Shown here piece after piece: positions 39,943-54,791 of a DNA stretch of 64,000 nucleotides (positions are counted from its first letter, which is position 1; each line of letters begins with the position of its first letter). This DNA is from Hydrurus foetidus. Its lineage: Eukaryota. The stretch lies in NCBI GenBank assembly GCA_900617105.1, contig UYFQ01000032.1, positions 496,001 through 560,000 on the forward strand, in the 5' to 3' direction. Position numbers and translations under genes: made by a program. Below the pieces are notes generated by a model. That model did no database searches. It saw only the letters and a list, made by a program, of their open reading frames with translations, and was not told the origin of the DNA.

Positions 39943-41040
39943 ATGAAACGAGTCAAACGGGTCATCTGTGGTTTGGGCATGGTGCTTGCACTGTGCAGTT
40001 CTGCGGCATTCGCTGACGAACTTGAAGACAATTTGACAACAGTGTGGGAAAGCCTGTGGCATCAAACAGGAACGCCCATGCGCCTTGTACGCTGGGGCAA
40101 ACCCATCCAGGTCCGCTTATCAGGGCTTGATCTTGAAGTACACCGCGAGCACACATCGAAAGCTTTGCGCGAAGCAGCGACACTGACTGGGCTGCAAATA
40201 ACCGACATCAGCGAGCAAGACAGCAGCGTTGCAGAGGCGAACTTCACCATTGAGTTTGTTGATTTCAGGGCTTTGAACGAAAACGAAGGGTGCATCACCT
40301 CCGTAACCTGGAAGACCGATGGCTTGATCGACAAGGTAGCGATGAAAGCCAAAAGCGGTGAAGCTTGGCGCTGCATGTACCATGAAATCATGCACGCGAT
40401 GGGTGTGATGGGGCACCCCATCGGTAAAACCGTGCTGAGCTACTTCCCCTGGCGGCGCGATGTCTTTATGCCAATGGACGCACTGATGCTGCGCAGTTGG
40501 TACTCGCCTGAAATGAAGCCCCGCATGACGCCCCTGCAAGGGCTGGTGCTTTTGTCGGATGCGGTGGTTCAACAAACAACCCCCGCTGATCTCGCGGCAC
40601 GCACCATCCAGCAAAAATTTTTACAAACGACATTCGCGCAGATGGAAGCCTATGCAGAGGGACGAGGAGAAGTACCTCCTGTGGTCAAGCGGTCTGGCAG
40701 ATCCAGCACCCAAGCCATGCAGGCAGGCCAACTGGCCATGAGTTACTTTGTGGGCTTGGCCTATGCAGACGGCACCATCGTCCCAGTCAACTCAAGCAAA
40801 GCCGCCGTCTGGTTTGAACGCGCTGCGCGGCAAAGCCACAGTCCCTCACAAATTTTGCTGGCACGGTTGTTGGAAAAAGGGGATGGCGTAGACCGCGATC
40901 TGGTGAAAGCCTACAAATGGTTCAGTTTGGCAGCCATTCAAAAAAACAGCTTGGGCAAGCCGGGGGTGGAACGCATCGCCACTTTACTCAGTCCAGAGCA
41001 GCTTGAAGAAGCCCAAAGTCGCGTCATCGCCTTCAAATGA
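39943..41040 (+). CDS. exported zincin-like (HExxH) protein with Sel1-like repeats
   Basis: signal peptide, HEIMHAMGVMGH, C-terminal repeats (KAAVWFERAARQ, GDGVDRDLVKAYKWF). Confidence 0.7.
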   Translation: MKRVKRVICGLGMVLALCSSAAFADELEDNLTTVWESLWHQTGTPMRLVRWGKPIQVRLSGLDLEVHREHTSKALREAATLTGLQITDISEQDSSVAEANFTIEFVDFRALNENEGCITSVTWKTDGLIDKVAMKAKSGEAWRCMYHEIMHAMGVMGHPIGKTVLSYFPWRRDVFMPMDALMLRSWYSPEMKPRMTPLQGLVLLSDAVVQQTTPADLAARTIQQKFLQTTFAQMEAYAEGRGEVPPVVKRSGRSSTQAMQAGQLAMSYFVGLAYADGTIVPVNSSKAAVWFERAARQSHSPSQILLARLLEKGDGVDRDLVKAYKWFSLAAIQKNSLGKPGVERIATLLSPEQLEEAQSRVIAFK

Positions 41041-44811: not shown

Positions 44812-44841
44812 AAAAAAAAGCACCGACTAGCGGTGCTTTTT
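44812..44841. terminator. terminator downstream of tRNA-Met
   Basis: AAAAAGCACCG-loop-CGGTGCTTTTT. Confidence 0.75.
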
Positions 44842-44849
44842 AAATTTTT

Positions 44850-44926
44850 TGGTGGTGGTAGGTGGATTTGAACCACCGACTTCAGCATTATGAATGCTGC
44901 GCTCTAACCAACTGAGCTATACCACC
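44850..44926 (-). tRNA. tRNA-Met(CAT), elongator type
   Basis: acceptor GGTGGTA/TACCACC, anticodon arm CAGCA-TTCATAA-TGCTG, TTCAAAT T-loop, CCA; fully paired 1:72 so not an initiator. Confidence 0.92.
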
Positions 44927-44960: not shown

Positions 44961-47015
44961 TCAAAGCGGCGAACGCAGGTGCAACTCCGGCCGGGGATCG
45001 GCTTGGTAGGGTTGTACCGGATTGGCTTGGGCAAGGCTGCGCTCCAGCGCCGTCAACGCCTCTTGCACTTGCTGCAAGGCGCTGGCTTGCGCGGGTGACA
45101 GCACTTGGTTGGCGTGCCTGCCTGTCAGTGGGGATGCGGTCATGCTTTCAATGATGTGCGCTGACAGTTGACCGGTGTAGGGTGCGAACTGCGCTGCTTC
45201 GGTAAATCCCCCCATACGTGTACGCAGTGCCCCGACAAAGCTGTTGAAGCGCACCCAGCGGTGCTCACGCCAGCCTGGGGACTCCACGGAGCCTCTCGCC
45301 TGCGGGTCTAGGAATTTTTTGACCAATTTCTCCCCAGCGGGCCGCCCGTACTGCCCGGCCATGCGCAGAATCACTTTCCCGGAAATTTTCAAATCCAAGC
45401 CGCCTAAAACCGATGCCTCGGTATCGCTTTCAGACGCTCTTTCGCGTTCAAGCCCGATATGCACCACGCGATCACGCACGCCGGGTTGGCGCACGGAGGT
45501 GCTGTCGTTCCAACTGCGCATGGTGCCCAAAATATCGCTGAAAAAGCCGAATAACTCGTTCAGTGGCGTGGGCTTGAGGGGCGTGGCTGCACCGGGTGAA
45601 TGGGGTGGTGGTTCGTCGAACTCCTGAAGGCCATCGTCGTGCGCCTCGGTCGTCCATACAGCGTCATTGCCTCGCCCCTTGTCCAGCATGATGCCAAAGG
45701 TGGGCCAGCGGGGCAGGACGGCATCGAACTGGTGGATGGGAAAGTTGGCACACAGGCCACCGTCTGAAAACCAGCATTTGTAAAACGGATCCGCCCCTGC
45801 CACAGGTTGCGGTTTCAACGCCCACAGCGGGACAGGTTTGAACAGCACCGGAAAGCTCAGGCTCATGCGCGTAGCAACGATGATGGGCAAGTCCCCTTGG
45901 GGGAGTTCGTAGTACTCATCACCTTTGGCTGTGCCGGCCGGCTGTGGGGTATACAGGTTAGCCTTTACCTTCAAATGCCGCATCACGTCATCGGGGAAGA
46001 AGGCGGACAACTCAGCCGCTTTGAAAAACAAGCGGTTGCTGGTGCCTGCGAGCGGCAAACCGTAGGGACGGCCTTGCGTGAGGTTGCTCGTCACCATACG
46101 CAGGTCAATCGAGCGGGGGCGATGGGTGTTGGGTAGCGCCGCTGGCGAAAGCGGTGCGGGGGGCGTAGGGCCACCGGGTGCATCCCACAGGTCTTTGAAG
46201 GTAAGTACATGGCTGGATGTGCGGCCCGCTGCACCTTGAATGCCCTCGTGCAACCAGTCAATCAGCCCCTGCGGCGCACCGGCTTTGGGGCTGGTTTGCA
46301 TACCGGTACACAGGCCCACGCCGCCCGGCAACAGTCCGATTTTCACATCGCGCCAGACACCCAGCGCGATGAACACCACCATGCCGGCGAAGGCACAACC
46401 CAAACCCAACGCCAAGAGCGCGACCAAAGGAGGGATCGCCAAAGGCACCACTGGAGGCAGTACCGCCACAGCCCAACCGAAACCCAAGGTGCAGATCACG
46501 CCGACAGCAACCCCCATCCACGCCCACAACGCATAGGCGCTGAGCAGCACGTCCAAAGCGGCTTGCAAACGGGCCCATTTGGAATGGCTGGTGGGTGCGC
46601 TGCACAGCGACACGAACAAGTCGAACAGGCGCTGTGCGTGGGGGGCGGGCTGAAACAGCGAAAACAGCTTGGTGTCTTTGTTGCCGCTGCGGGGTTGCTG
46701 GCCAGGTTCCTGGGGCGCATCTTCGGCCAGCTTGAGGGGGACTTTCAGCATCACCTCGTTGAAGCCCCGCACGCTGCCATAGCGGCGGCTGTACTCCGCC
46801 GCTGCGGTCAACGCCGCCGCCAACGCCCCGACCGAGGTGCCGCCGATATTTTTGAAACGGTACTGGTGGGCCAGCGCCATGATGGCCCAGGGGTAGACCA
46901 CGCCATCGACCACACCGCCTTTCATCACCACATCGCAATAGCGGTCGATGGGGGGTTGCGCGTCTGGGTTCAGGGGCGGTGGTGGCGGGAATTCGAGCTC
47001 AGGGTTGGGGTGCAT
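44961..47015 (-). CDS. patatin-like phospholipase with inserted transmembrane hairpin
   Basis: KGGVVDG oxyanion loop, GTSVG nucleophile, SDGG catalytic Asp, RMSLSFPVLF; two hydrophobic helices; overlaps DyP 3' end. Confidence 0.85.
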   Translation of the reverse strand: MHPNPELEFPPPPPLNPDAQPPIDRYCDVVMKGGVVDGVVYPWAIMALAHQYRFKNIGGTSVGALAAALTAAAEYSRRYGSVRGFNEVMLKVPLKLAEDAPQEPGQQPRSGNKDTKLFSLFQPAPHAQRLFDLFVSLCSAPTSHSKWARLQAALDVLLSAYALWAWMGVAVGVICTLGFGWAVAVLPPVVPLAIPPLVALLALGLGCAFAGMVVFIALGVWRDVKIGLLPGGVGLCTGMQTSPKAGAPQGLIDWLHEGIQGAAGRTSSHVLTFKDLWDAPGGPTPPAPLSPAALPNTHRPRSIDLRMVTSNLTQGRPYGLPLAGTSNRLFFKAAELSAFFPDDVMRHLKVKANLYTPQPAGTAKGDEYYELPQGDLPIIVATRMSLSFPVLFKPVPLWALKPQPVAGADPFYKCWFSDGGLCANFPIHQFDAVLPRWPTFGIMLDKGRGNDAVWTTEAHDDGLQEFDEPPPHSPGAATPLKPTPLNELFGFFSDILGTMRSWNDSTSVRQPGVRDRVVHIGLERERASESDTEASVLGGLDLKISGKVILRMAGQYGRPAGEKLVKKFLDPQARGSVESPGWREHRWVRFNSFVGALRTRMGGFTEAAQFAPYTGQLSAHIIESMTASPLTGRHANQVLSPAQASALQQVQEALTALERSLAQANPVQPYQADPRPELHLRSPL

Positions 47016-48513
47016 GAGGCGTTCCCAAATCAGCAAAAACATCGCCGTCATGCATCATTTTCAAACCTTGGACACCGGGGAAAAAGGCGTACATCGTGCC
47101 CAGGGTGCGTACAAACGGCGTGAAGCCTTGAACCGACACCTGCGTGTCACCGTCGCGCTGGGGAATGTCAAAAAAGGCGGTTTTATCGCTGTGGTGACCT
47201 ATCAAGGGGTCTTTGGCGCTGCCTCGGTTGGGCACACCCATCGGGTTGGCATCGGCCCATTCGCTGAGCAAATGTTCAAACTGGTCTTCCAAGCTGGCGC
47301 AAAAAAACAAACCCAGCAGACCACGCTCGACCGGTGGGGCCGTGCTGTCGGCCTCCTCTGCCGCATTCCACACCGGGCCATAGGGGATGCCGCGCCGTAC
47401 CACGGGGCGGCGGCGGGTGGGCACCACCGCATCGGTGCGGGGGTTCATGCGGCGGATGTGGGCACCAAAGGGGCAGCCTACGCCTTCCTCGTCCTCTCTG
47501 AAATTAAAGCCGTCCAGCCCGTCCGGTGGAGGGGCGTGAGGTGACGCAGGGTGCAGCGCAGGGGCTGTGTTCTCGTCGGGCCTCACGACCTGCCCATTGC
47601 GCCAGCGACCCAGCAATTTTGCACGCAAATATTCTGGTAAAACGTTTATGTTATCTGCGTTACGTGCTACAAATTTTTCAAACTCAAGCACGTCTTGCTG
47701 CATAGGGCGGAAGGCACCAAAGCTGGCATTTTTGAAGAAACAGGCGATCTTGGCAGACTGTTCATGTGCGGGAACGCCCGACAAATCAGGCCGCTCGGTG
47801 GCCAGCCGCCATGCGTTGAAGCCTTCGTCATTCGCGTAACCCAGCAGCACTTCGCCGGGTTGGTGGGCATTCTTAGGAGATTTTGGGGAGGCACCTTGGA
47901 TGTGAACTTTCGAGATACCGTCCAGCATCCCGAAATGAACCCGCCGGGCTTTGCGGGCCTCGGGCGTGTGCTCTAGGTGCTGGCCGTCAAAGGCGTTGCG
48001 CCATCCCGCGTCAGTAAAGGCACCGTTGGCGAGCGTTTGCAGCACGGCTTGGGTAGCGTCCAGCGCCGCTGGGGTGTCCGCGTGCCACGTCAGCAAGACG
48101 TGGGCGGTGTGGGGCTCAAAAAGCGGGTTCCAAAACGTGGCCGCATTGCTGCCGGTATCGGCCAAATGCGCTGCGGCCCTGGGGTACGCCCCTTGCGCAA
48201 AGGCACGGGCTTTGTTTTGAAAGACAGCTTGGTAGCGAGGCTGAAGGCCCAAAGCGACGAGGCCGTTGAACGTCAAACCCAAGCCCACGGGGCATTGGTG
48301 CTCAGACAAGCGCTGGCTGACGTGCCTGCGGTGGTGCTCCGCCGTGGTCAGCCAGTGGTCGTGCGCCAGTTGGACGAGAAAGTCTTTGGCCAGACGCGCA
48401 TCCGCCACCGTCAGCACCACGTAGCGGCTGCAGTGCAGGTCGTAGCCCTGGAGCACCAGTTTTTGAATGTCGTTCAGCGCTAGCGTGGGCTGCGGTGTGG
48501 CGGGCGCACTCAT
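46999..48513 (-). CDS. DyP-type heme peroxidase
   Basis: HFGMLDGIS (GxxDG), CPFGAHIRRMNPR, RRGIPYG, RGLLGLFFCASLEDQFE; ATGA overlap with P450 stop. Confidence 0.88.
   Translation of the reverse strand: MSAPATPQPTLALNDIQKLVLQGYDLHCSRYVVLTVADARLAKDFLVQLAHDHWLTTAEHHRRHVSQRLSEHQCPVGLGLTFNGLVALGLQPRYQAVFQNKARAFAQGAYPRAAAHLADTGSNAATFWNPLFEPHTAHVLLTWHADTPAALDATQAVLQTLANGAFTDAGWRNAFDGQHLEHTPEARKARRVHFGMLDGISKVHIQGASPKSPKNAHQPGEVLLGYANDEGFNAWRLATERPDLSGVPAHEQSAKIACFFKNASFGAFRPMQQDVLEFEKFVARNADNINVLPEYLRAKLLGRWRNGQVVRPDENTAPALHPASPHAPPPDGLDGFNFREDEEGVGCPFGAHIRRMNPRTDAVVPTRRRPVVRRGIPYGPVWNAAEEADSTAPPVERGLLGLFFCASLEDQFEHLLSEWADANPMGVPNRGSAKDPLIGHHSDKTAFFDIPQRDGDTQVSVQGFTPFVRTLGTMYAFFPGVQGLKMMHDGDVFADLGTPHAPQP
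47628..47682 (-). repeat. ~55-bp dispersed motif copy (inside DyP gene)
   Basis: core TTTGAAAAATTTGTAGC, GC at +8/9, AC at +21/22, AATATTT at +33. Confidence 0.55.
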
Positions 48514-50426
48514 TGCTTGTGCCTGCACAGGTCATTTTGGATTTGCGCGACTTCGGCCTGGGGATAAGCGCTGAAAAAATAGTCGCCGACCGCACGCTGG
48601 TGAAAGCGCCGGATCGTGTCCACAAACTCTTTGGGGAACTCGTTCACTGGCAGAGGCGGTGCATCTTGGATGTGCTCAAAGATGCGGTCAAAGAGCGGGC
48701 CAATCTGGAGGGCAAAGTGCTCGATATAGGAATCAAAATCACGGTCGTAAATGGTGAAAAGGGCCAGTTTGCTGTCGTGGTCAAACAGCATGAACTGCGC
48801 AAAATGCACATGCTTGGCATCGATCAGTTTTTTCTCGATGCGGGGCGCACCAGCCTGGATGATCTGCTTGAGCTTTTCGGCATGCTCTGAAAGCGGCAGT
48901 TTGACGTTCATGATGACGTTCAACGGCGACTGCTTGATGACGGCTGTACGGTTGAACTCCATCGGGTAGCTTTGGCTGGTATAGCCCCACTTTTTTTGCA
49001 GCCCCAAGCGCTGGCCGGTTCTGGGGCTGATGCGCTCTGCCAAGCCTTCGAGCAGCAGGGTTTGCCGTGCAATATGGGTGATAAGCGGCATCGCCAAATG
49101 CTGGCCCACGCACTGGTGGACAAAGCTGGGGTCACTGGGGTCGCCACCAAAGATCAAGGGGTCGTAGCCTTTTCGGGTTTCGTCGAACTGATCGGCTTCT
49201 TCCGGTTGGTAGGCATTCAAGTCGCGTGTGGCCGCACCTAAGGCCAAGATGACGGTGCTGCCTGCAGGAATGGTGGGGCTACCGCCTTCCGAAAACGAAA
49301 TATCTCGCGTGGTTTTGCGCGGCAAGAAGGCTGCAGGCGGGTTGAGCCGCAGGGCTTCCCAGACAAAGGGGGTGAATGACGCATCTGGCCCGGCTCGGGT
49401 GCCTGACTGCTCTGCGGCTTTGACCGCCGCATCATGGGCGCGCTCCCACACGCCAGCGCCTGAACGAAAGAACTGGTTGATCGTCATGGCTACACCGCTT
49501 TGCACATTGCCTACGGTGCCTGCAATCAGGCCAACAACAATCACCGCCAATTCCATCGCGCTGTAGGGTTCGGGAGTCCCCGGTGTACCTTGAGCTTGTG
49601 CCATGCGCCTGAGCACAGGGCTGAAGGCCTTGAGCGGGAAAGATCGACGGGTAGGCTCGAACGCTTGCACCTCTGCCAATTCAGCGTCGATGGTGGCGAG
49701 TTCATCGGTCTGCGCCAGCCCGATAGGCGATTGGTACAGCCCGATCAAATCGGCCACCCGCTTGGCCAGTGCGCCCAAGGCAGCACTGTTTTCAGGAATC
49801 ACAAAAGGATCGGTGACGAAGTGGCGGGCATAGGTTTGGTAAGCCAGTCCGCTAGAGGCTTTGCGCAGCGCAGCTTCCAGCAGCACATGGTCAGCTTGGG
49901 CAAAGCCAAACAAAAAGCCCACAAAGCGTAAAGCTGCTTGCTCGGCCAGATCGGCCAAGTCAAACGCGCGTTGCTTGAGGGGCAGCACAGCTGCTGTCAT
50001 GAAGCTGATGCTGCACAGCGCCTCAATGGTGGGCGCATCGCAATAGAGGTAGCTTCTGGCAAACTTGTGTTGCTGGGTATGGTCAGCACCGTGGTCAAGG
50101 CCCAGCATGAACGTACCACTGCCCAAGGCTTGGTAGGGCGAATTGCTGAAATCGACCGTGCTGTTTTGGAAAGCCTGCTTCACGTGGTCTCGCACTGTGA
50201 GAAGGTAGACCGTTTGGTGAAACTGGGAGGGGGCCCTGTCTGTGGCGCTTTCTTTGACATCGGCGCGGCTCTGGAACGCCAGCACGGTGGGCGTTTTCAG
50301 CAAGCAGCGGTACAGATCCGCGCGGTCGCGGTCGTCGCTCAGCCAAGTGAACAGCAGGTGGTTGGCGTGCTGTGGATTGCGTTGGTTTGTTGCGTTGAAT
50401 TCATCGAGCTTCGTCAATGTTGTCAT
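48510..50426 (-). CDS. atypical cytochrome P450 fused to a C-terminal ~135-aa domain
   Basis: EALR (ExxR), FLPR, heme Cys HQCVGQHLA, I-helix GLIAGTVGNVQ; tail PLNVIMNV..HVHFAQF..FTIYDRDF..FFSAYP. Confidence 0.82.
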   Translation of the reverse strand: MTTLTKLDEFNATNQRNPQHANHLLFTWLSDDRDRADLYRCLLKTPTVLAFQSRADVKESATDRAPSQFHQTVYLLTVRDHVKQAFQNSTVDFSNSPYQALGSGTFMLGLDHGADHTQQHKFARSYLYCDAPTIEALCSISFMTAAVLPLKQRAFDLADLAEQAALRFVGFLFGFAQADHVLLEAALRKASSGLAYQTYARHFVTDPFVIPENSAALGALAKRVADLIGLYQSPIGLAQTDELATIDAELAEVQAFEPTRRSFPLKAFSPVLRRMAQAQGTPGTPEPYSAMELAVIVVGLIAGTVGNVQSGVAMTINQFFRSGAGVWERAHDAAVKAAEQSGTRAGPDASFTPFVWEALRLNPPAAFLPRKTTRDISFSEGGSPTIPAGSTVILALGAATRDLNAYQPEEADQFDETRKGYDPLIFGGDPSDPSFVHQCVGQHLAMPLITHIARQTLLLEGLAERISPRTGQRLGLQKKWGYTSQSYPMEFNRTAVIKQSPLNVIMNVKLPLSEHAEKLKQIIQAGAPRIEKKLIDAKHVHFAQFMLFDHDSKLALFTIYDRDFDSYIEHFALQIGPLFDRIFEHIQDAPPLPVNEFPKEFVDTIRRFHQRAVGDYFFSAYPQAEVAQIQNDLCRHKQ

Positions 50427-50459
50427 TCCAGTCCCCTTTTAAATGCGTGTCTGTACGTG

Positions 50460-53400
50460 CTAAACCACCTGTGGCACTCCTTCAAGCATGTTCAGCAAAT
50501 GCGCTGCGGACACCCCATCATGCGTGCTCAAGTCTTCTTTCATGTTGCTCATGGCCAAGCGCAAAGCGTGTTGCGCCTCAGGAATGCGGCCTTGGCGCAT
50601 CCACAGCCGCGCCAAACTGGTGGCAGCACGCAGGGCCAGCGCATCGAGTTGACGGCTGCGGGAGAAATCCAGTGCGCTGCTGAACCAGCGCTCAGCCTCG
50701 GCTTGGCGGTCTTGGCCCTGTAGCGCCGCCGATTGCAACAGCAATTCGCCGTAAAGGCGGCGAATTTCAGGCTCGTAGTAGCGCTCGCCATAGCGTGAAA
50801 CCAAATCAAACGCGGTTTGCAGCAGCGGCAAGCCTTCAATGGGCCGCCCAGCCAGGGCATAACCTTCGGCTTGGATGGCAAGGTAAAAAGCCCGCGTCAC
50901 CACCGCCCCCGTGGCCACCCACATGCTGTAACCCTCGGCCATCTCTGCAATCCCCGCCGTAGCGTCACCCAGTTGCGCCACAGCACGGCCATGGATCAGT
51001 TTGGCATGGGCCAGCCAGACGGCAAAACCGCCTTCTTCGCAGATATCTTTGGCACGTTGCGCATCGTGCAGCGCTTGGGGGTATTCGCCGCGAAAGTAAT
51101 GCAGCATGGCTACCAGCCCAAAGGCTTCACCCTGGCTGAACTTGTGCTTAAGTTGCTCAGCCAGCGCAATGGCAGATTGCCCACGGCGCAAGGCGTCTTG
51201 CGGGTAGCCCAACTCCCATTGGGCCAAGGCGCTGTAGCACAGGCACATCACGCCGGGGTCTTGCACCGCGCCGGGGCGGTGGGCCAGCTGCTGGTAATGG
51301 GCCAGACTCTCGTCCATATGGGCCACCGCAGAGACCAACTCCCCTTGGTGGAACAAAATATTGGCGACAGCCCAGGTGGCCTGCACTTGGCGCATAGGGT
51401 CGCTGGATTGGCTGACCAAATCAGCCGCTTGGGCAGCGATGGCATGGGCTTGGCCAAAGTTACCGCGCATAAAGTGGTAGCCCTCCAGACCGAACTGCAC
51501 TTTCAGCAGCGCACGCTGGTCGCCACTGGCACGGCAAAGCACCAACGCCCGCTGGTAAATCGCCCCGACACGCTCGGCGCCATAGCCTTCGGTCGCGATG
51601 AGCTGCCCAGCCAGCAGCAGTTGCAGGCTGAGCTCGGCGCGGTCACGCTCTTGGCTGGTGGGCAGCATGTCCACCAAAGCCAAGCCCTGCCCCAAATGGC
51701 TGATCGCCTCTTCGTGGGCTGAGCGCGAGAGGGCCATGCGGGCGGCCAGCTCCCAGTGTTGCAAAGCCAGGGCGTGGATACCCGCGCCGGTGTAGTGGTA
51801 AGCCAGCATTTCGGGCTGGCTGCGTGCCAATTCAGGAAAGCACTCGTTCACGGTCAGCGCGATGGCCCGGTGAAACTTGCGGCGATCGCGCTCCCAAAGA
51901 GATTGGTAAGCGGCGTCGCGCATCAGGGCGTGCTTGAAGAAATAGCTTTTGCCTTCCCTGCCTCGCCCATCCCCGCCTCCCGCACCTTTTTGCCCCCCTT
52001 TTTCCATCAGCATGCCAGACACCACCAGCGCATGCAGTCGCCCAGCCAAGTTGTCGGCCCGCAGGGGTGAGCTGTCGTGCGCCAGCACAGCTTCCATCAA
52101 GCTCAAAGAAAACTCACGACCCATGGCGCTGCCCAGTTGGGCGATGTGTTTGGCCCCCGCCAAGCGGTCAAGCCGCGCCATCAGCAGGTCTTGTATCGTG
52201 CCAGGCACGGTAAGCGTGAGGGTGGATACGCCGTCGCGAAGGTCATCGGCTTCCCCAGCGGGACTGATGGCGGTACTGCTGTGGACCACGTTGTCGGCTT
52301 TGAGATCGAGCAGCATGCGGGCCGATTCTTCGATAAACAGGGGCACGCCATCGGCCTTGTCCGCCAATAGCCGAATCGCTTCGCTTGGCAACGGGAAATC
52401 GCCGTAGATGCTTCGGATCATGCTCTGGGTAGCCTCAGGTGTCAGGCCTTTCAACTCCATTTCTTTGACGGCAAAATCAGGCTTTCGCCCCGCTGCAGCT
52501 TCGGTACGTTGGGTGAGCAACAACATCAAAGGCAGGTCTGTGGAAGCCAGTACCACCTGCTTAAGCAGCTCTCGACTGGACGGGTCTAGCCACTGCACGT
52601 CTTCAACCACCAAGCACATGGGGGCGCGGCGTGCCTCTTGGGTAATCCAGCTCACCAGAACTTGGATGGTCACTTGACGTTGCTTTTCGGTAGAAATTTG
52701 GGCCTCTGCTGCCGCGTCACTCCCTGTGGCCGTAGGGCTGAGCTCCTGCGGTATGCCCAAAAGCATGGCCATGGCGTTGAGCGCAGCCAAAGTGTCAAAG
52801 GGAATACGGTGCTCCGTGCGTCGCTCAATACCGCCGAAGACCGTGTCCAAACGCAAACCGGCCTCCAGTTTGGTCAGTTTTTGGACTGCGGTATCGGATT
52901 CTTGAATCTTCAACCAGCGTCGCAGCAAATCCGTAACAGGTCTGAAGGCGCTGTTGGCATGGTCAGGGGTACAGCGGCACTCCCGCGTCAGGTGATTGCG
53001 GGCTATGAGCGCATGCCGAAACTCACGCACCAGCCGGGTTTTACCTATGCCGGCTTCACCCGACACCAAAACGGCTATCCCCGTGCTCTGGCAGGTTTGT
53101 GACCAGCGCTCTTGCAACCAGCCCAGCTCGCGTGCGCGGCCCACGAAGCGGGTGGGTAGTGGCGCTGATTCAGGTGGACTGCTGTAGGCTTGGCGCTCGC
53201 CCAGCAGGCGGTAGGCGGTGCCAGGGCGGTCAATGCCCTTGAGCAGAGGCACCTGCTCCAAAGGTGAAAAATCGAATTGAAGCTTCACTATTTGGCGTGT
53301 GGATTCGCTGACCACCGCTGTTCCCGGTGCCGCAATAGACTGCAAGCGTGCAGCAAAGTGAATCGCTACACCCACCGGCATACCAGCCTTGACGGCGACC

Positions 53401-54791
53401 GATCCCGTCACAATGCCAATGCGAATGCGCAGTTGCAATTGGGCCACCGCCTCCACCATCTCCAGCGCAGCGCGCAAGCACTGTGCGGCGGCGTTTTCAA
53501 AGGCCACGTGCAGGCCAAAGTAACACATCACGCCATCACTGCCCTGTGGATCGTTGGCCACCCCACCCCACTTCACCACAATTTGGGCGCAGCAGGCGTG
53601 GTAGTTGTCCAGCACATCGCTGTACTTCTCTGGCCCCAGTGCATTCAGCAGCTTGGTGGAATCCACCAAATCGTAAGACAACACCGTGACCTGCCGCTGG
53701 TTGTTGACCTCTTGCGGTGGGAGGGTCGGTTGGGCCACGACCGCTGTAGCATCACCGTACAGCGAGGTGTCCAGACAGGCCGATACGGACAGTGTGGCTG
53801 AGCCCTGCGTCACCAAAGCCGCATCGCGCAGTGCTCCACCCAAACTCGCGCCCCGCGCCAAGGCTTTGTAAAACTCGGCCATGTAGCTGGGTTGGTCATC
53901 GCCTGCGAGCAAGGTGTTGCGAAACAAGGCGCTCAAACCTGCGCGGCTGATGCTACTGGCCAGCAGTGCATGGTCATCCCGTGCCCGATGCAGAGTGCTG
54001 GTGAGTGCTTGAGGCGCGCGGCCCATGTCGGTATCGGTACGCTCGAAAATAAGCAGCGCCGGTGGCAAGGCCAAACCTGACAGTTCATGCACCGACACAG
54101 CCCCCGTGCCCGGCTCACCTGCCGCAGGGCGTACCGTGGCAACCAAAGGGCCAATGCAGTGAACGACATCGCTTTCGCCTACCAACCGCAGCAGCTGGGC
54201 ATGGGCCAGCTCATAGGCCACCAAACCTTTGACCGAAATGCCCTCTACCCCTTCCAAGCGACGCAGCAGGCCCTGGGCATACAGGTGGCCAAAGTGCAGC
54301 TCATCGTCCGTGTGAACCACCAGCACCTTGAGTTCATCCACCACCGTTCGGATGGGGGATGGGGCGGTGGCCGGCTGGTCTGACAGCAGATACCGCGAGA
54401 CCACAAACTTATGGCCCCAAAACTGCTGGCCATCAAAGGCTGCTTCCCAGGGGACGGGCTGCAAAGCCTCGTTGATTTGCAAGAACAAGGGCCGCTCTGG
54501 GCTTTCCACCAAAAAGAGACCGATGGATGGTGGCACCAGCCGTGAAAAAATCAGCTGACCCAAGCGGTGAATCCGGTCGTCTTGGCTGCTGTAGTCTGTT
54601 TCCTCGAACGAAGGGGCGGAGGGTTGACGAAGCAGCATCGCCGCTTCAGTCGTGATGTCGTCGAGCGCAGCCGCACTGACAGCGATGACCCCTATGCGCC
54701 CCACGGTGCGCGAATCACTCAGCGATGCCGAGACAAAGCCATGCTCCCACATCAAAGTGAGGCTGATAGGGCGAATGTCAGGGCTGTGCAT
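50460..54791 (-). CDS. multidomain sensor: degenerate CHAT + class III cyclase + AAA/STAND-like NTPase + TPR-like repeats
   Basis: VPWEAAFD/VVHCIG/EFYKAL/LYGD (CHAT-like); RQVTVLSYDLVDST, GSDGVMCYFG, AARLQ (cyclase); FVGRARE, GEAGIGKT, VVEDVQW, DGVPLFIEE, FKHALMRDAAY; helical C-terminus. Confidence 0.85.
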   Translation of the reverse strand: MHSPDIRPISLTLMWEHGFVSASLSDSRTVGRIGVIAVSAAALDDITTEAAMLLRQPSAPSFEETDYSSQDDRIHRLGQLIFSRLVPPSIGLFLVESPERPLFLQINEALQPVPWEAAFDGQQFWGHKFVVSRYLLSDQPATAPSPIRTVVDELKVLVVHTDDELHFGHLYAQGLLRRLEGVEGISVKGLVAYELAHAQLLRLVGESDVVHCIGPLVATVRPAAGEPGTGAVSVHELSGLALPPALLIFERTDTDMGRAPQALTSTLHRARDDHALLASSISRAGLSALFRNTLLAGDDQPSYMAEFYKALARGASLGGALRDAALVTQGSATLSVSACLDTSLYGDATAVVAQPTLPPQEVNNQRQVTVLSYDLVDSTKLLNALGPEKYSDVLDNYHACCAQIVVKWGGVANDPQGSDGVMCYFGLHVAFENAAAQCLRAALEMVEAVAQLQLRIRIGIVTGSVAVKAGMPVGVAIHFAARLQSIAAPGTAVVSESTRQIVKLQFDFSPLEQVPLLKGIDRPGTAYRLLGERQAYSSPPESAPLPTRFVGRARELGWLQERWSQTCQSTGIAVLVSGEAGIGKTRLVREFRHALIARNHLTRECRCTPDHANSAFRPVTDLLRRWLKIQESDTAVQKLTKLEAGLRLDTVFGGIERRTEHRIPFDTLAALNAMAMLLGIPQELSPTATGSDAAAEAQISTEKQRQVTIQVLVSWITQEARRAPMCLVVEDVQWLDPSSRELLKQVVLASTDLPLMLLLTQRTEAAAGRKPDFAVKEMELKGLTPEATQSMIRSIYGDFPLPSEAIRLLADKADGVPLFIEESARMLLDLKADNVVHSSTAISPAGEADDLRDGVSTLTLTVPGTIQDLLMARLDRLAGAKHIAQLGSAMGREFSLSLMEAVLAHDSSPLRADNLAGRLHALVVSGMLMEKGGQKGAGGGDGRGREGKSYFFKHALMRDAAYQSLWERDRRKFHRAIALTVNECFPELARSQPEMLAYHYTGAGIHALALQHWELAARMALSRSAHEEAISHLGQGLALVDMLPTSQERDRAELSLQLLLAGQLIATEGYGAERVGAIYQRALVLCRASGDQRALLKVQFGLEGYHFMRGNFGQAHAIAAQAADLVSQSSDPMRQVQATWAVANILFHQGELVSAVAHMDESLAHYQQLAHRPGAVQDPGVMCLCYSALAQWELGYPQDALRRGQSAIALAEQLKHKFSQGEAFGLVAMLHYFRGEYPQALHDAQRAKDICEEGGFAVWLAHAKLIHGRAVAQLGDATAGIAEMAEGYSMWVATGAVVTRAFYLAIQAEGYALAGRPIEGLPLLQTAFDLVSRYGERYYEPEIRRLYGELLLQSAALQGQDRQAEAERWFSSALDFSRSRQLDALALRAATSLARLWMRQGRIPEAQHALRLAMSNMKEDLSTHDGVSAAHLLNMLEGVPQVV

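What the first reader, a model, noticed from the sequence alone, without database searches (positions are those of the whole stretch)
44961..54791. Four-gene cassette: pseudo-CHAT/cyclase/NTPase/TPR sensor, atypical P450 fusion, DyP peroxidase and membrane patatin (candidate oxylipin signalling or conflict system)
Seen: four co-directional genes with tight coupling (33-bp gap with an RBS, an ATGA overlap, a 17-bp overlap), lying between a housekeeping enoyl-CoA hydratase and tRNA-Met. Established: patatins release fatty acids and act as membrane-disrupting effectors in CBASS (CapV). Class III cyclases make the cNMP signal in Pycsar. STAND-type NTPase-TPR proteins act as ligand-sensing switches. 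DyPs and CYP74-type P450s act on peroxides. Inference: the enzymes form a lipase-to-peroxide-to-P450 route making or detoxifying an oxidised-lipid signal under control of the sensor; alternatively this is a defence module with a phospholipase effector. I do not recognise this combination as a named system.
Basis: partly seen in the sequence, partly recalled or inferred. Interest (0 to 1): 0.9.

Follow-up and report, generated by a model that had tools for sequence, protein, structure and literature searches.

The report
Sensor-linked bacterial lipid-peroxide enzyme cassette
A conserved, apparently unnamed bacterial gene cassette joins a large signalling protein to two haem enzymes and usually a phospholipase; it likely converts membrane fatty acids, through a peroxide, into oxidised lipids under predicted cyclic-nucleotide control, which would give a testable natural job to a peroxidase class whose role is unknown.

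Summary
The four intact, tightly coupled genes are there as described. The cassette is an insertion between enoyl-CoA hydratase and tRNA-Met (adjacent in 9 of 10 nearest other genomes) and is patchy (8 of 201 family genomes). Across 89 related loci the DyP always follows the P450 (81/81 with room), the sensor is directly upstream in 55/62, and the patatin follows in 49/67. The core is therefore sensor + P450 + DyP; the patatin is frequent but dispensable. The P450 keeps its haem cysteine, but a near-invariant Asn replaces the oxygen-activating Thr, as in reductase-free hydroperoxide isomerases. No redox partner travels with it. Its C-terminal alpha+beta barrel domain is a constant DyP neighbour; elsewhere the pair sits with a second P450 family or a catalase-like enzyme, often beside fatty-acid genes (including Deinococcus DyP). 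The cyclase resembles active LipJ, and CRP regulators recur nearby. Best reading: a cyclic-nucleotide-linked fatty-acid hydroperoxide (oxylipin-type) pathway (0.45). No lipoxygenase or dioxygenase was found nearby, so the peroxide source is open. Defence is poorly supported. No activity was tested. DyP-P450 fusions were catalogued in 2022; I found no paper on this cassette.

The parts
50460..54791 (-). Sensor, 1443 aa: CHAT-like domain without catalytic motifs (about residues 1-350), class III cyclase domain (363-516), STAND-type NTPase (548-756), TPR region
   Evidence: Pfam Guanylate_cyc, AAA_16, TPR_12; TIGR03903 455 bits, below its 706 cut-off; ESM Atlas CHAT 0.95; motif counts
53244..53705 (-). 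LipJ/Rv1900c-like cyclase domain: both metal-binding Asp (D374, D419) and R482 kept in 30/30; catalytic Asn replaced by His (H478, 29/30)
   Evidence: Closest solved structure 1ybt (LipJ), E 5e-14, which has the same His; counts
48510..50426 (-). Atypical cytochrome P450 (about residues 7-495) fused to a C-terminal barrel domain; C439 haem ligand (codon 49112-49110), N307 at the conserved-Thr position (codon 49508-49506)
   Evidence: Model pLDDT 85; P450 fold Z about 30, identity at most 20%; profile alignments; conservation
48519..48944 (-). Unnamed dimeric alpha+beta (ferredoxin-like) barrel domain, residues 495-636; a constant neighbour or fusion partner of this DyP class
   Evidence: No credible Pfam match; model matches mutarotase/ABM/TcmI-type barrels at Z 8-9; 912 representatives at E<=0.001; contexts
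46999..48513 (-). Class V (C-type) DyP peroxidase, 504 aa, with distal Asp198, proximal His352 and distal Arg374; no hydrophobic leader or membrane segment
   Evidence: Closest solved structure Deinococcus DyP 8RE3/8RE2, E 4e-30; residues kept 31/31, 31/31, 30/31; hydropathy
44961..47015 (-). Patatin-like phospholipase, 684 aa, with Gly loop, Ser61 and Asp418 and a hydrophobic insert (156-221); frequent but dispensable member
   Evidence: Pfam Patatin; relatives annotated 'RpoH suppressor' at 28-30% identity; S and D each 15/16; DyP-patatin fusion P0232
54841..55632 (-). Flank, not part of the cassette: enoyl-CoA hydratase, left border of the insertion site
   Evidence: ECH_1; directly followed by tRNA-Met in 9 of the 10 next-best genomes
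44850..44926 (-). Flank, not part of the cassette: tRNA-Met, right border, followed by a terminator-like hairpin at 44815-44841

Best explanation
This is a conserved operon-like cassette that likely runs a fatty-acid hydroperoxide (oxylipin-type) pathway: the patatin likely frees fatty acids from the inner membrane, the DyP with its barrel partner likely makes or activates the peroxide, the reductase-free P450 likely rearranges or cleaves it, and the NTPase-TPR sensor is predicted to make a cyclic nucleotide read by a CRP-type regulator. Shown: gene order and linkage, folds, catalytic residues, loss of the P450 acid-alcohol pair, absence of a travelling redox partner, recurrence of CRP and fatty-acid genes near relatives. 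Inferred: every substrate, product and the direction of control (the sensor may switch the pathway on or sense its product). Where the patatin is absent, free fatty acids would come from other lipases or from outside.
For: DyP follows the P450 fusion in 81/81 loci with room, sensor directly upstream in 55/62, patatin after DyP in 49/67. Five P450-barrel-DyP fusions among 150 listed representatives and one DyP-patatin fusion. Two gap-free profile alignments place N307 on the conserved Thr and G306 on the acid residue (CalO2, CYP143); N is kept in 43/43 close and 34/35 diverse relatives, Cys439 in all, and an acid-alcohol pair occurs in 0/43 and 1/35. An Asn at this axial position marks prostacyclin synthase (ATQGN287) and fungal diol/epoxy-alcohol synthases, which need no reductase (PMC13049297). 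No dedicated ferredoxin or reductase among 89 neighbouring ORFs. The barrel-DyP pair also occurs with an unrelated P450 family lacking the pair (3 genomes) or with a catalase-family protein (7 of 9 plasmid regions read); four metagenome catalase-like partners carry R-G-T-H, the Thr-His of coral catalase-related allene oxide synthase (PMC5617202). 3-hydroxyacyl-CoA dehydrogenase lies in 4 of those 9 regions, oleate hydratase plus thioesterase in 2. A CRP gene lies near 14 dereplicated loci, on either side.
Against: No lipoxygenase or haem dioxygenase among 89 neighbouring ORFs, and DyPs are not known to me as fatty-acid dioxygenases, so the hydroperoxide source is unexplained. The patatin is absent from 18 of 67 loci (about 4 changes on the tree). 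The fungal NxxQ motif is not met (N-x-Q here; Q only 21/35), and the review says the Asn can be dispensable and does not fix the reaction. No CYP74, CYP8 or fungal companion P450 is among the listed sequence or fold hits. The fatty-acid genes sit beside the catalase-type clusters, whose barrels are only 27-43% identical to ours, and the two oleate-hydratase cases share one layout. The plasmid catalases have Ala, not Thr, before the distal His. The cyclase lacks the usual purine-selecting residues. The CRP subfamily is common (74/201 genomes), is beside only 9 of 20 well-flanked loci and is not in this window.
Confidence: 0.45

Rival explanations
1. A membrane-repair and detoxification unit: the patatin removes peroxidised or toxic unsaturated acyl chains, and DyP and P450 destroy the peroxides; no signal or product is made.
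For: Needs no dioxygenase, which fits. Related clusters pair barrel-DyP with a catalase-family protein, a TetR regulator, oleate hydratase and 3-hydroxyacyl-CoA dehydrogenase. PMC9719856 offers peroxide scavenging as one role for DyP-P450 fusions.
Against: A 1400-residue NTPase-cyclase switch is a heavy regulator for scavenging, yet it is kept in 34/34 dereplicated well-flanked loci. Deinococcus DyP is inactive on H2O2 at neutral pH (PMC10820274). The cassette is rare (8/201 genomes).
Confidence: 0.2
2. A small biosynthetic or catabolic pathway for a non-lipid compound (aromatic or other), in which DyP and a peroxide-driven P450 act in turn and the barrel is a cofactor-free oxygenase, cyclase or isomerase.
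For: The barrel's fold matches ABM oxygenases, polyketide cyclases and mutarotases. DyPs oxidise aromatics. In Rhodoferax/Albidiferax a LigB-type ring-opening dioxygenase gene follows the DyP instead of the patatin.
Against: The LigB neighbour belongs to one clade with shared flanks. No precursor-synthesis genes recur. The patatin is spread across the whole tree and fuses to DyP.
Confidence: 0.15
3. An anti-phage or conflict system: the STAND-TPR protein senses an invader, makes a cyclic nucleotide and triggers the membrane patatin, with the haem enzymes adding oxidative damage.
For: STAND-TPR sensors, class III cyclases and patatins are all used in defence (established knowledge; weak PycC matches). 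Patchy presence and insertion next to a tRNA. One copy lies in a MoxR-vWA ternary system and three lie near toxin-antitoxin genes.
Against: No PADLOC match for patatin, P450 or DyP. Of 101 neighbouring ORFs, 11 match PADLOC, all through generic domains (cNMP-binding, kinase, ABC, ankyrin). The candidate effector is the dispensable gene and has no cNMP-binding domain by Pfam; the cNMP-binding neighbours are CRP transcription factors.
Confidence: 0.12

Closest known systems
Fungal dioxygenase-P450 fusions (linoleate diol, epoxy alcohol and allene oxide synthases; PMC13049297) and prostacyclin synthase CYP8A1
   Same: A peroxidase-type haem enzyme coupled to a P450 with an Asn in place of the I-helix Thr and an HxC haem motif; no reductase partner.
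   Different: The first enzyme here is a DyP with a barrel partner, not a cyclooxygenase-family dioxygenase; no NxxQ motif; no sequence hit to those P450s; a cyclase sensor and a patatin are part of the unit.
DyP subclass V4, 'P450 domain plus DyP domain' (PMC9719856, sequence survey)
   Same: P450 N-terminal to a class V DyP, as in the fused relatives P0271, P0300, P0312, P0351, P0363; the paper raises the same psi-factor-oxygenase analogy.
   Different: V4 is described with transmembrane regions between the domains; here a soluble barrel domain lies between them and the genes are separate. The passages read do not mention the barrel, sensor or patatin. I did not see the V4 member list.
Deinococcus radiodurans DyP (DrDyP, PDB 8RE2/8RE3; PMC10820274)
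   Same: Closest solved DyP (E 4e-30); its gene also follows a barrel-family gene; natural substrate unknown.
   Different: Its third enzyme is a catalase-family protein, with 3-hydroxyacyl-CoA dehydrogenase and TetR, not P450, cyclase sensor or patatin.
CYP74 clan (plant and bacterial allene oxide synthases, hydroperoxide lyases)
   Same: Asn in the I-helix groove and an insertion in the haem-binding loop.
   Different: The Asn context differs (GTVGN versus FNxxGG), the insertion is 6 residues here and variable in the family, the ExxR motif is lost in many relatives, and no CYP74 was among the listed hits.
Cyclase-NTPase-TPR proteins (TIGR03903 TOMM kinase/cyclase; LipJ/Rv1900c-type cyclase domain)
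   Same: Same cyclase-AAA-TPR body (455 bits over residues 351-1395); cyclase shares LipJ's His for Asn.
   Different: N-terminal pseudo-CHAT instead of a kinase; below the family cut-off; no TOMM genes nearby.
CBASS (CapV) and Pycsar
   Same: A nucleotide cyclase domain and a patatin in one operon.
   Different: No CD-NTase; PycC matches are weak and domain-level; patatin is of a different, membrane-inserted family with no PADLOC match; haem enzymes are the core.

Membership tests
Cytochrome P450 superfamily | P450 fold | tested here: met
   Model residues 7-495 align to P450s at Z about 30, rmsd about 3, 360-390 residues
Cytochrome P450 superfamily | Haem-ligating Cys in HxCxG | tested here: met
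   C439 in 43/43 and 35/35
Conventional P450 monooxygenase | I-helix acid-alcohol pair | tested here: not met
   G306-N307 at these positions; pair in 0/43 and 1/35
Fungal DOX-CYP companion P450s (LDS/EAS) | Axial Asn in SRS4 | tested here: met
   By profile alignment register only, not by superposition; motif from PMC13049297
Fungal DOX-CYP companion P450s (LDS/EAS) | NxxQ motif | tested here: not met
   N-V-Q-S; Gln at +2 against NQxQ
Fungal DOX-CYP companion P450s (LDS/EAS) | Cyclooxygenase-family dioxygenase partner | tested here: not met
   None fused and none among 89 neighbouring ORFs
CYP74 clan | Nine-residue insertion in the haem loop and FN-type groove motif | tested here: not met
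   Phe-to-Cys span 14 here, 8-21 in the family; features from PMC8124189
CYP74 clan | Sequence or structural grouping with CYP74 | tested here: inconclusive
   Not among listed hits; no tree with CYP74 was built
Self-sufficient (hydroperoxide-using) P450s | Turnover of a hydroperoxide without reductase | not testable with these tools
   Needs an enzyme assay
DyP class V | GxxDG Asp, proximal His, distal Arg, about 500 residues | tested here: met
DyP subclass V4 | P450 and DyP in one chain with transmembrane regions between | tested here: not met
   Separate genes here; no membrane segment between the domains; fused relatives exist but were not placed against V4 members
Patatin-like acyl hydrolases | Gly-rich loop, GxSxG Ser, DGG Asp | tested here: met
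Class III nucleotide cyclase (active) | Two metal Asp, transition-state Asn/Arg, purine-selecting pair | tested here: inconclusive
   Asp, Asp and Arg 30/30; Asn is His as in LipJ; selecting residues non-canonical; activity untested
STAND NTPase | Walker A and B, C-terminal TPR sensor | tested here: met
   K584 and D731 30/30; AAA_16, TPR_12
CHAT protease (active) | His-Gly and Cys catalytic motifs | tested here: not met
   Motif positions variable and non-catalytic; fold likeness
CBASS / Pycsar | CD-NTase or PycC plus cognate effector, defence-island context | tested here: not met
CBASS / Pycsar | Protection against phage | not testable with these tools
   Needs phage challenge

The most novel reading that the evidence does not exclude
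The barrel-DyP pair is a new class of fatty-acid dioxygenase. It would take the place that lipoxygenase and cyclooxygenase-type enzymes hold in plants, corals and fungi, feeding interchangeable second enzymes (two unrelated reductase-free P450 families, or catalase-related proteins). In this cassette it would form a complete lipase-to-oxylipin signalling cascade wired to a STAND-cyclase switch and CRP, and it would give class V DyPs such as DrDyP their natural reaction.
Probability: 0.2. Interest if true: 0.92.

Novelty: new variant of a known kind. Interest (0 to 1): 0.7.

Why it matters
The natural substrates of bacterial class V DyPs are stated to be unknown (PMC10820274). This cassette names a constant partner domain, a swappable second haem enzyme and a lipase, so the question becomes a few enzyme assays. 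If the lipid reading holds, it is a bacterial oxylipin route without lipoxygenase, tied to cyclic-nucleotide signalling. The P450 family (at most 20% identical to solved structures) would be a new reductase-free catalyst.

Tried and rejected
No whole genome is held for the window, so a lipoxygenase, CRP or reductase elsewhere in this organism could not be sought; the close relative G001 has the CRP subfamily on another contig. Expression: no RNA holder listed; two RNA runs of the same label gave no laid reads, which is no test; the two DNA runs agree with the window without gaps but may be its source. Complex prediction of DyP with the barrel gave no answer (score 0.00, alignments not used). 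Profile search of the sensor's N-terminus against solved structures found nothing. A metagenome scan with the DyP alone found nothing. Catalase-like partners had no useful solved relative. Pfam matches for the barrel were scattered and below cut-off. The Sphingomonas patatin beside a catalase-type cluster is unrelated to ours and is not counted as support. No terminal repeats among those listed, no integrase noticed among the ORFs read in 38-62 kb (by eye), and GC3 of the cassette (0.68-0.72) lies within the range of its neighbours (0.64-0.77), so a recent mobile element is not supported. Consensus promoter scan was at chance level. The first adjacency count for DyP used a faulty cut-off and was redone. 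Literature searches found no paper on the cassette; PMC2447327 held only references for my terms.


Full report
Observation. None is interrupted. Composition is flat across the region.

An insertion, and a patchy one. In a search of 31 relatives of the closest genome (G001, which carries the same cassette at the same site), the ten next-best enoyl-CoA hydratase matches were examined: in 9 of 10 the gene is followed directly by tRNA-Met. The cassette was therefore inserted between the two. A profile of the P450 fusion found full-length members in 8 of 201 genomes of the family, two of which (G001, G004) were already known. All six newly fetched ones carry the four genes in this order, one (G084) in broken form. 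These genomes are partly incomplete, so the rate is a lower bound. G149, marked unpublished, is only one of the 201 counted.

What travels together. The P450 fusion has 178 relatives among 7,997 scored candidates. Genome and metagenome scans gave 89 loci with the P450 part, 55 after clustering at 85% nucleotide identity. Counting only loci with enough flanking DNA: DyP comes next in 81/81 (48/48 dereplicated); the sensor is directly upstream in 55/62 (38/40, the other two having it downstream); the patatin follows DyP in 49/67 (31/40); all four stand in the window's order in 32/52 (25/34). On a quick tree of 37 P450s (one broken row dropped) patatin presence needs 4 changes, at least 2 forced by well-supported branches, and is spread over the whole tree, which fits repeated loss but does not prove it. 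Starting from the patatin, 29 of the 120 listed hits share an exact contig length with a listed P450 hit, against 0.7 expected. Fusions tie the parts: five P450-barrel-DyP chains among 150 listed representatives and one DyP-patatin chain. Named carriers are nearly all Burkholderiales or unclassified Betaproteobacteria, plus one labelled Gammaproteobacteria.

The P450. The model (pLDDT 85) has a full P450 fold over residues 7-495 (Z about 30, identity at most 20%). Cys439 is invariant. With a profile of 35 diverse representatives, two gap-free alignments put G306-N307 on the acid-Thr pair; a narrower profile gave a gapped, ambiguous alignment to CYP51. Asn307 is kept in 43/43 and 34/35. According to a 2026 review (PMC13049297; abstract, passages and Table 3 text read), an Asn at this axial position occurs in prostacyclin synthase (ATQGN), fungal diol and epoxy-alcohol synthases (GMxxNQxQ) and plant allene oxide synthase, all of which use a peroxide substrate and no reductase; ours reads GTVGNVQ. 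The same review says that the Asn can be dispensable. The NxxQ motif (PMC8097960, passages) and the fixed nine-residue CYP74 insertion (PMC8124189, passages) are not met. So it likely works like a hydroperoxide-using P450, but it is not shown to belong to any of those families.

The barrel and its partners. Residues 495-636 fold as a dimeric alpha+beta barrel (Z 8-9 to mutarotases, ABM oxygenases and polyketide cyclases, a middling score) with no credible Pfam match and 912 representatives. It stays with the DyP while the third enzyme changes. Three family genomes have barrel-DyP-P450 fusions with a different P450 family that also lacks the acid-alcohol pair, each followed by a winged-helix STAND-TPR regulator. 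One has catalase-like, barrel, DyP. Of 26 plasmid hits I read 9: DyP is next in 9/9, a catalase-family gene adjacent in 7/9, 3-hydroxyacyl-CoA dehydrogenase in 4/9 (Deinococcus, Agrobacterium, Roseomonas, Acinetobacter), oleate hydratase with thioesterase in 2/9 with one shared layout. The Deinococcus gene is DrDyP, our closest solved DyP, whose paper (PMC10820274; abstract and passages) reports no H2O2 activity at neutral pH and an unknown substrate. Four metagenome catalase-like partners have R-G-T-H, like T66-H67 of coral catalase-related allene oxide synthase (PMC5617202, passages); the plasmid ones have Ala there. P450s and catalase-related proteins are the two enzyme kinds that convert fatty-acid hydroperoxides, which is the strongest indirect argument for the lipid reading.

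The sensor. The N-terminus is CHAT-like without catalytic motifs and is replaced by SAM or absent in some relatives. Walker A and B are invariant. The cyclase keeps both metal Asp and the Arg; its Asn-to-His change is shared with LipJ/Rv1900c, the closest structure, described as an adenylyl cyclase with a functional dimer (PMC4174876, two passages). A CRP gene lies near 14 dereplicated loci, upstream or downstream and often within 100 bp, and a LuxR-type gene near 10. Against over-reading: this CRP subfamily is in 74/201 genomes (7 of 8 carriers; Fisher p 0.004, uncorrected for genome size or kinship), is beside 9 of 20 well-flanked loci, and is not in this window.

What is missing. Of 126 candidate neighbouring ORFs (some are shadow frames), 89 were scanned with Pfam and 101 with PADLOC. 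There was no lipoxygenase, haem dioxygenase or dedicated redox partner (one 2Fe-2S gene belongs to a molybdopterin oxidoreductase), and 11 PADLOC matches, all through generic domains. The peroxide source is the open step, and defence gets little support.

What is known. DyP-P450 fusions were catalogued as subclass V4 with the same fungal analogy (PMC9719856; abstract and passages; supplements not seen, and they may list relatives of these proteins). Searches found no paper on the cassette, the barrel or this patatin family; the library lacks most subscription journals. Earlier notes of this scan, seen only late, reach a like reading for this and sister layouts; they are unchecked and not counted as support.

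Verdict. A real, conserved, apparently undescribed cassette. Fatty-acid hydroperoxide chemistry in some form is about 0.65 likely (product-forming 0.45, detoxifying 0.2), non-lipid chemistry 0.15, defence 0.12. Interest 0.7.

Noticed in passing
P0386, P0391-P0393, P0396, P0403, P0406, P0410, P0413 (alignment A5): The barrel domain is also fused behind an unnamed 430-residue domain with a conserved CxxCH haem-c motif, several with a leader-like N-terminus; no credible Pfam or NCBIfam match. A fourth kind of haem partner.
   Followed up: partly
L053:4861-10021 (Deinococcus radiodurans): DrDyP lies in a TetR / 3-hydroxyacyl-CoA dehydrogenase / barrel / DyP / catalase-family cluster; 'operon', 'catalase' and 'fatty acid' do not occur in the main text of its 2024 paper.
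   Followed up: partly
L055:1742-8788 and L059:751-7788: A plasmid-borne block of oleate hydratase, 3-hydroxyacyl-CoA dehydrogenase, thioesterase, TetR, catalase-family, barrel and DyP genes next to insertion sequences in Agrobacterium and Roseomonas.
   Followed up: partly
L049:9274-15110, L050:8351-14278, L051:9022-14973: Barrel-DyP-P450 triple fusions followed by a winged-helix STAND-TPR regulator: an independent assembly of the same parts with a DNA-binding output in place of a cyclase.
   Followed up: partly
L048 (G084:C6): A copy in which sensor, P450, patatin and the adjacent CRP are all in pieces: decay or sequencing errors.
   Followed up: no
L018:2911-5790: One copy sits directly behind a MoxR-vWA-beta-propeller ternary system gene (bpX6), a conflict-system context.
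   Followed up: no
L003, L015, L063, L070, L071 upstream of the sensor: A glycerophosphodiester phosphodiesterase gene precedes the cassette in one group of loci; it would act on the head group left by a phospholipase, but may be shared synteny.
   Followed up: no
P0003, P0018, P0023, P0087: P450 fusions with a duplicated barrel domain, and stand-alone double-barrel proteins of about 285 residues, fit a barrel that works as a dimer.
   Followed up: no
window 39943-41040 (+): 365-aa protein with DUF2927 and Sel1 repeats.
   Followed up: no
window 44815-44841: Terminator-like hairpin with A and T runs on both sides just after tRNA-Met; no strong terminator was seen between enoyl-CoA hydratase, the cassette and the tRNA, so read-through is possible.
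   Followed up: no
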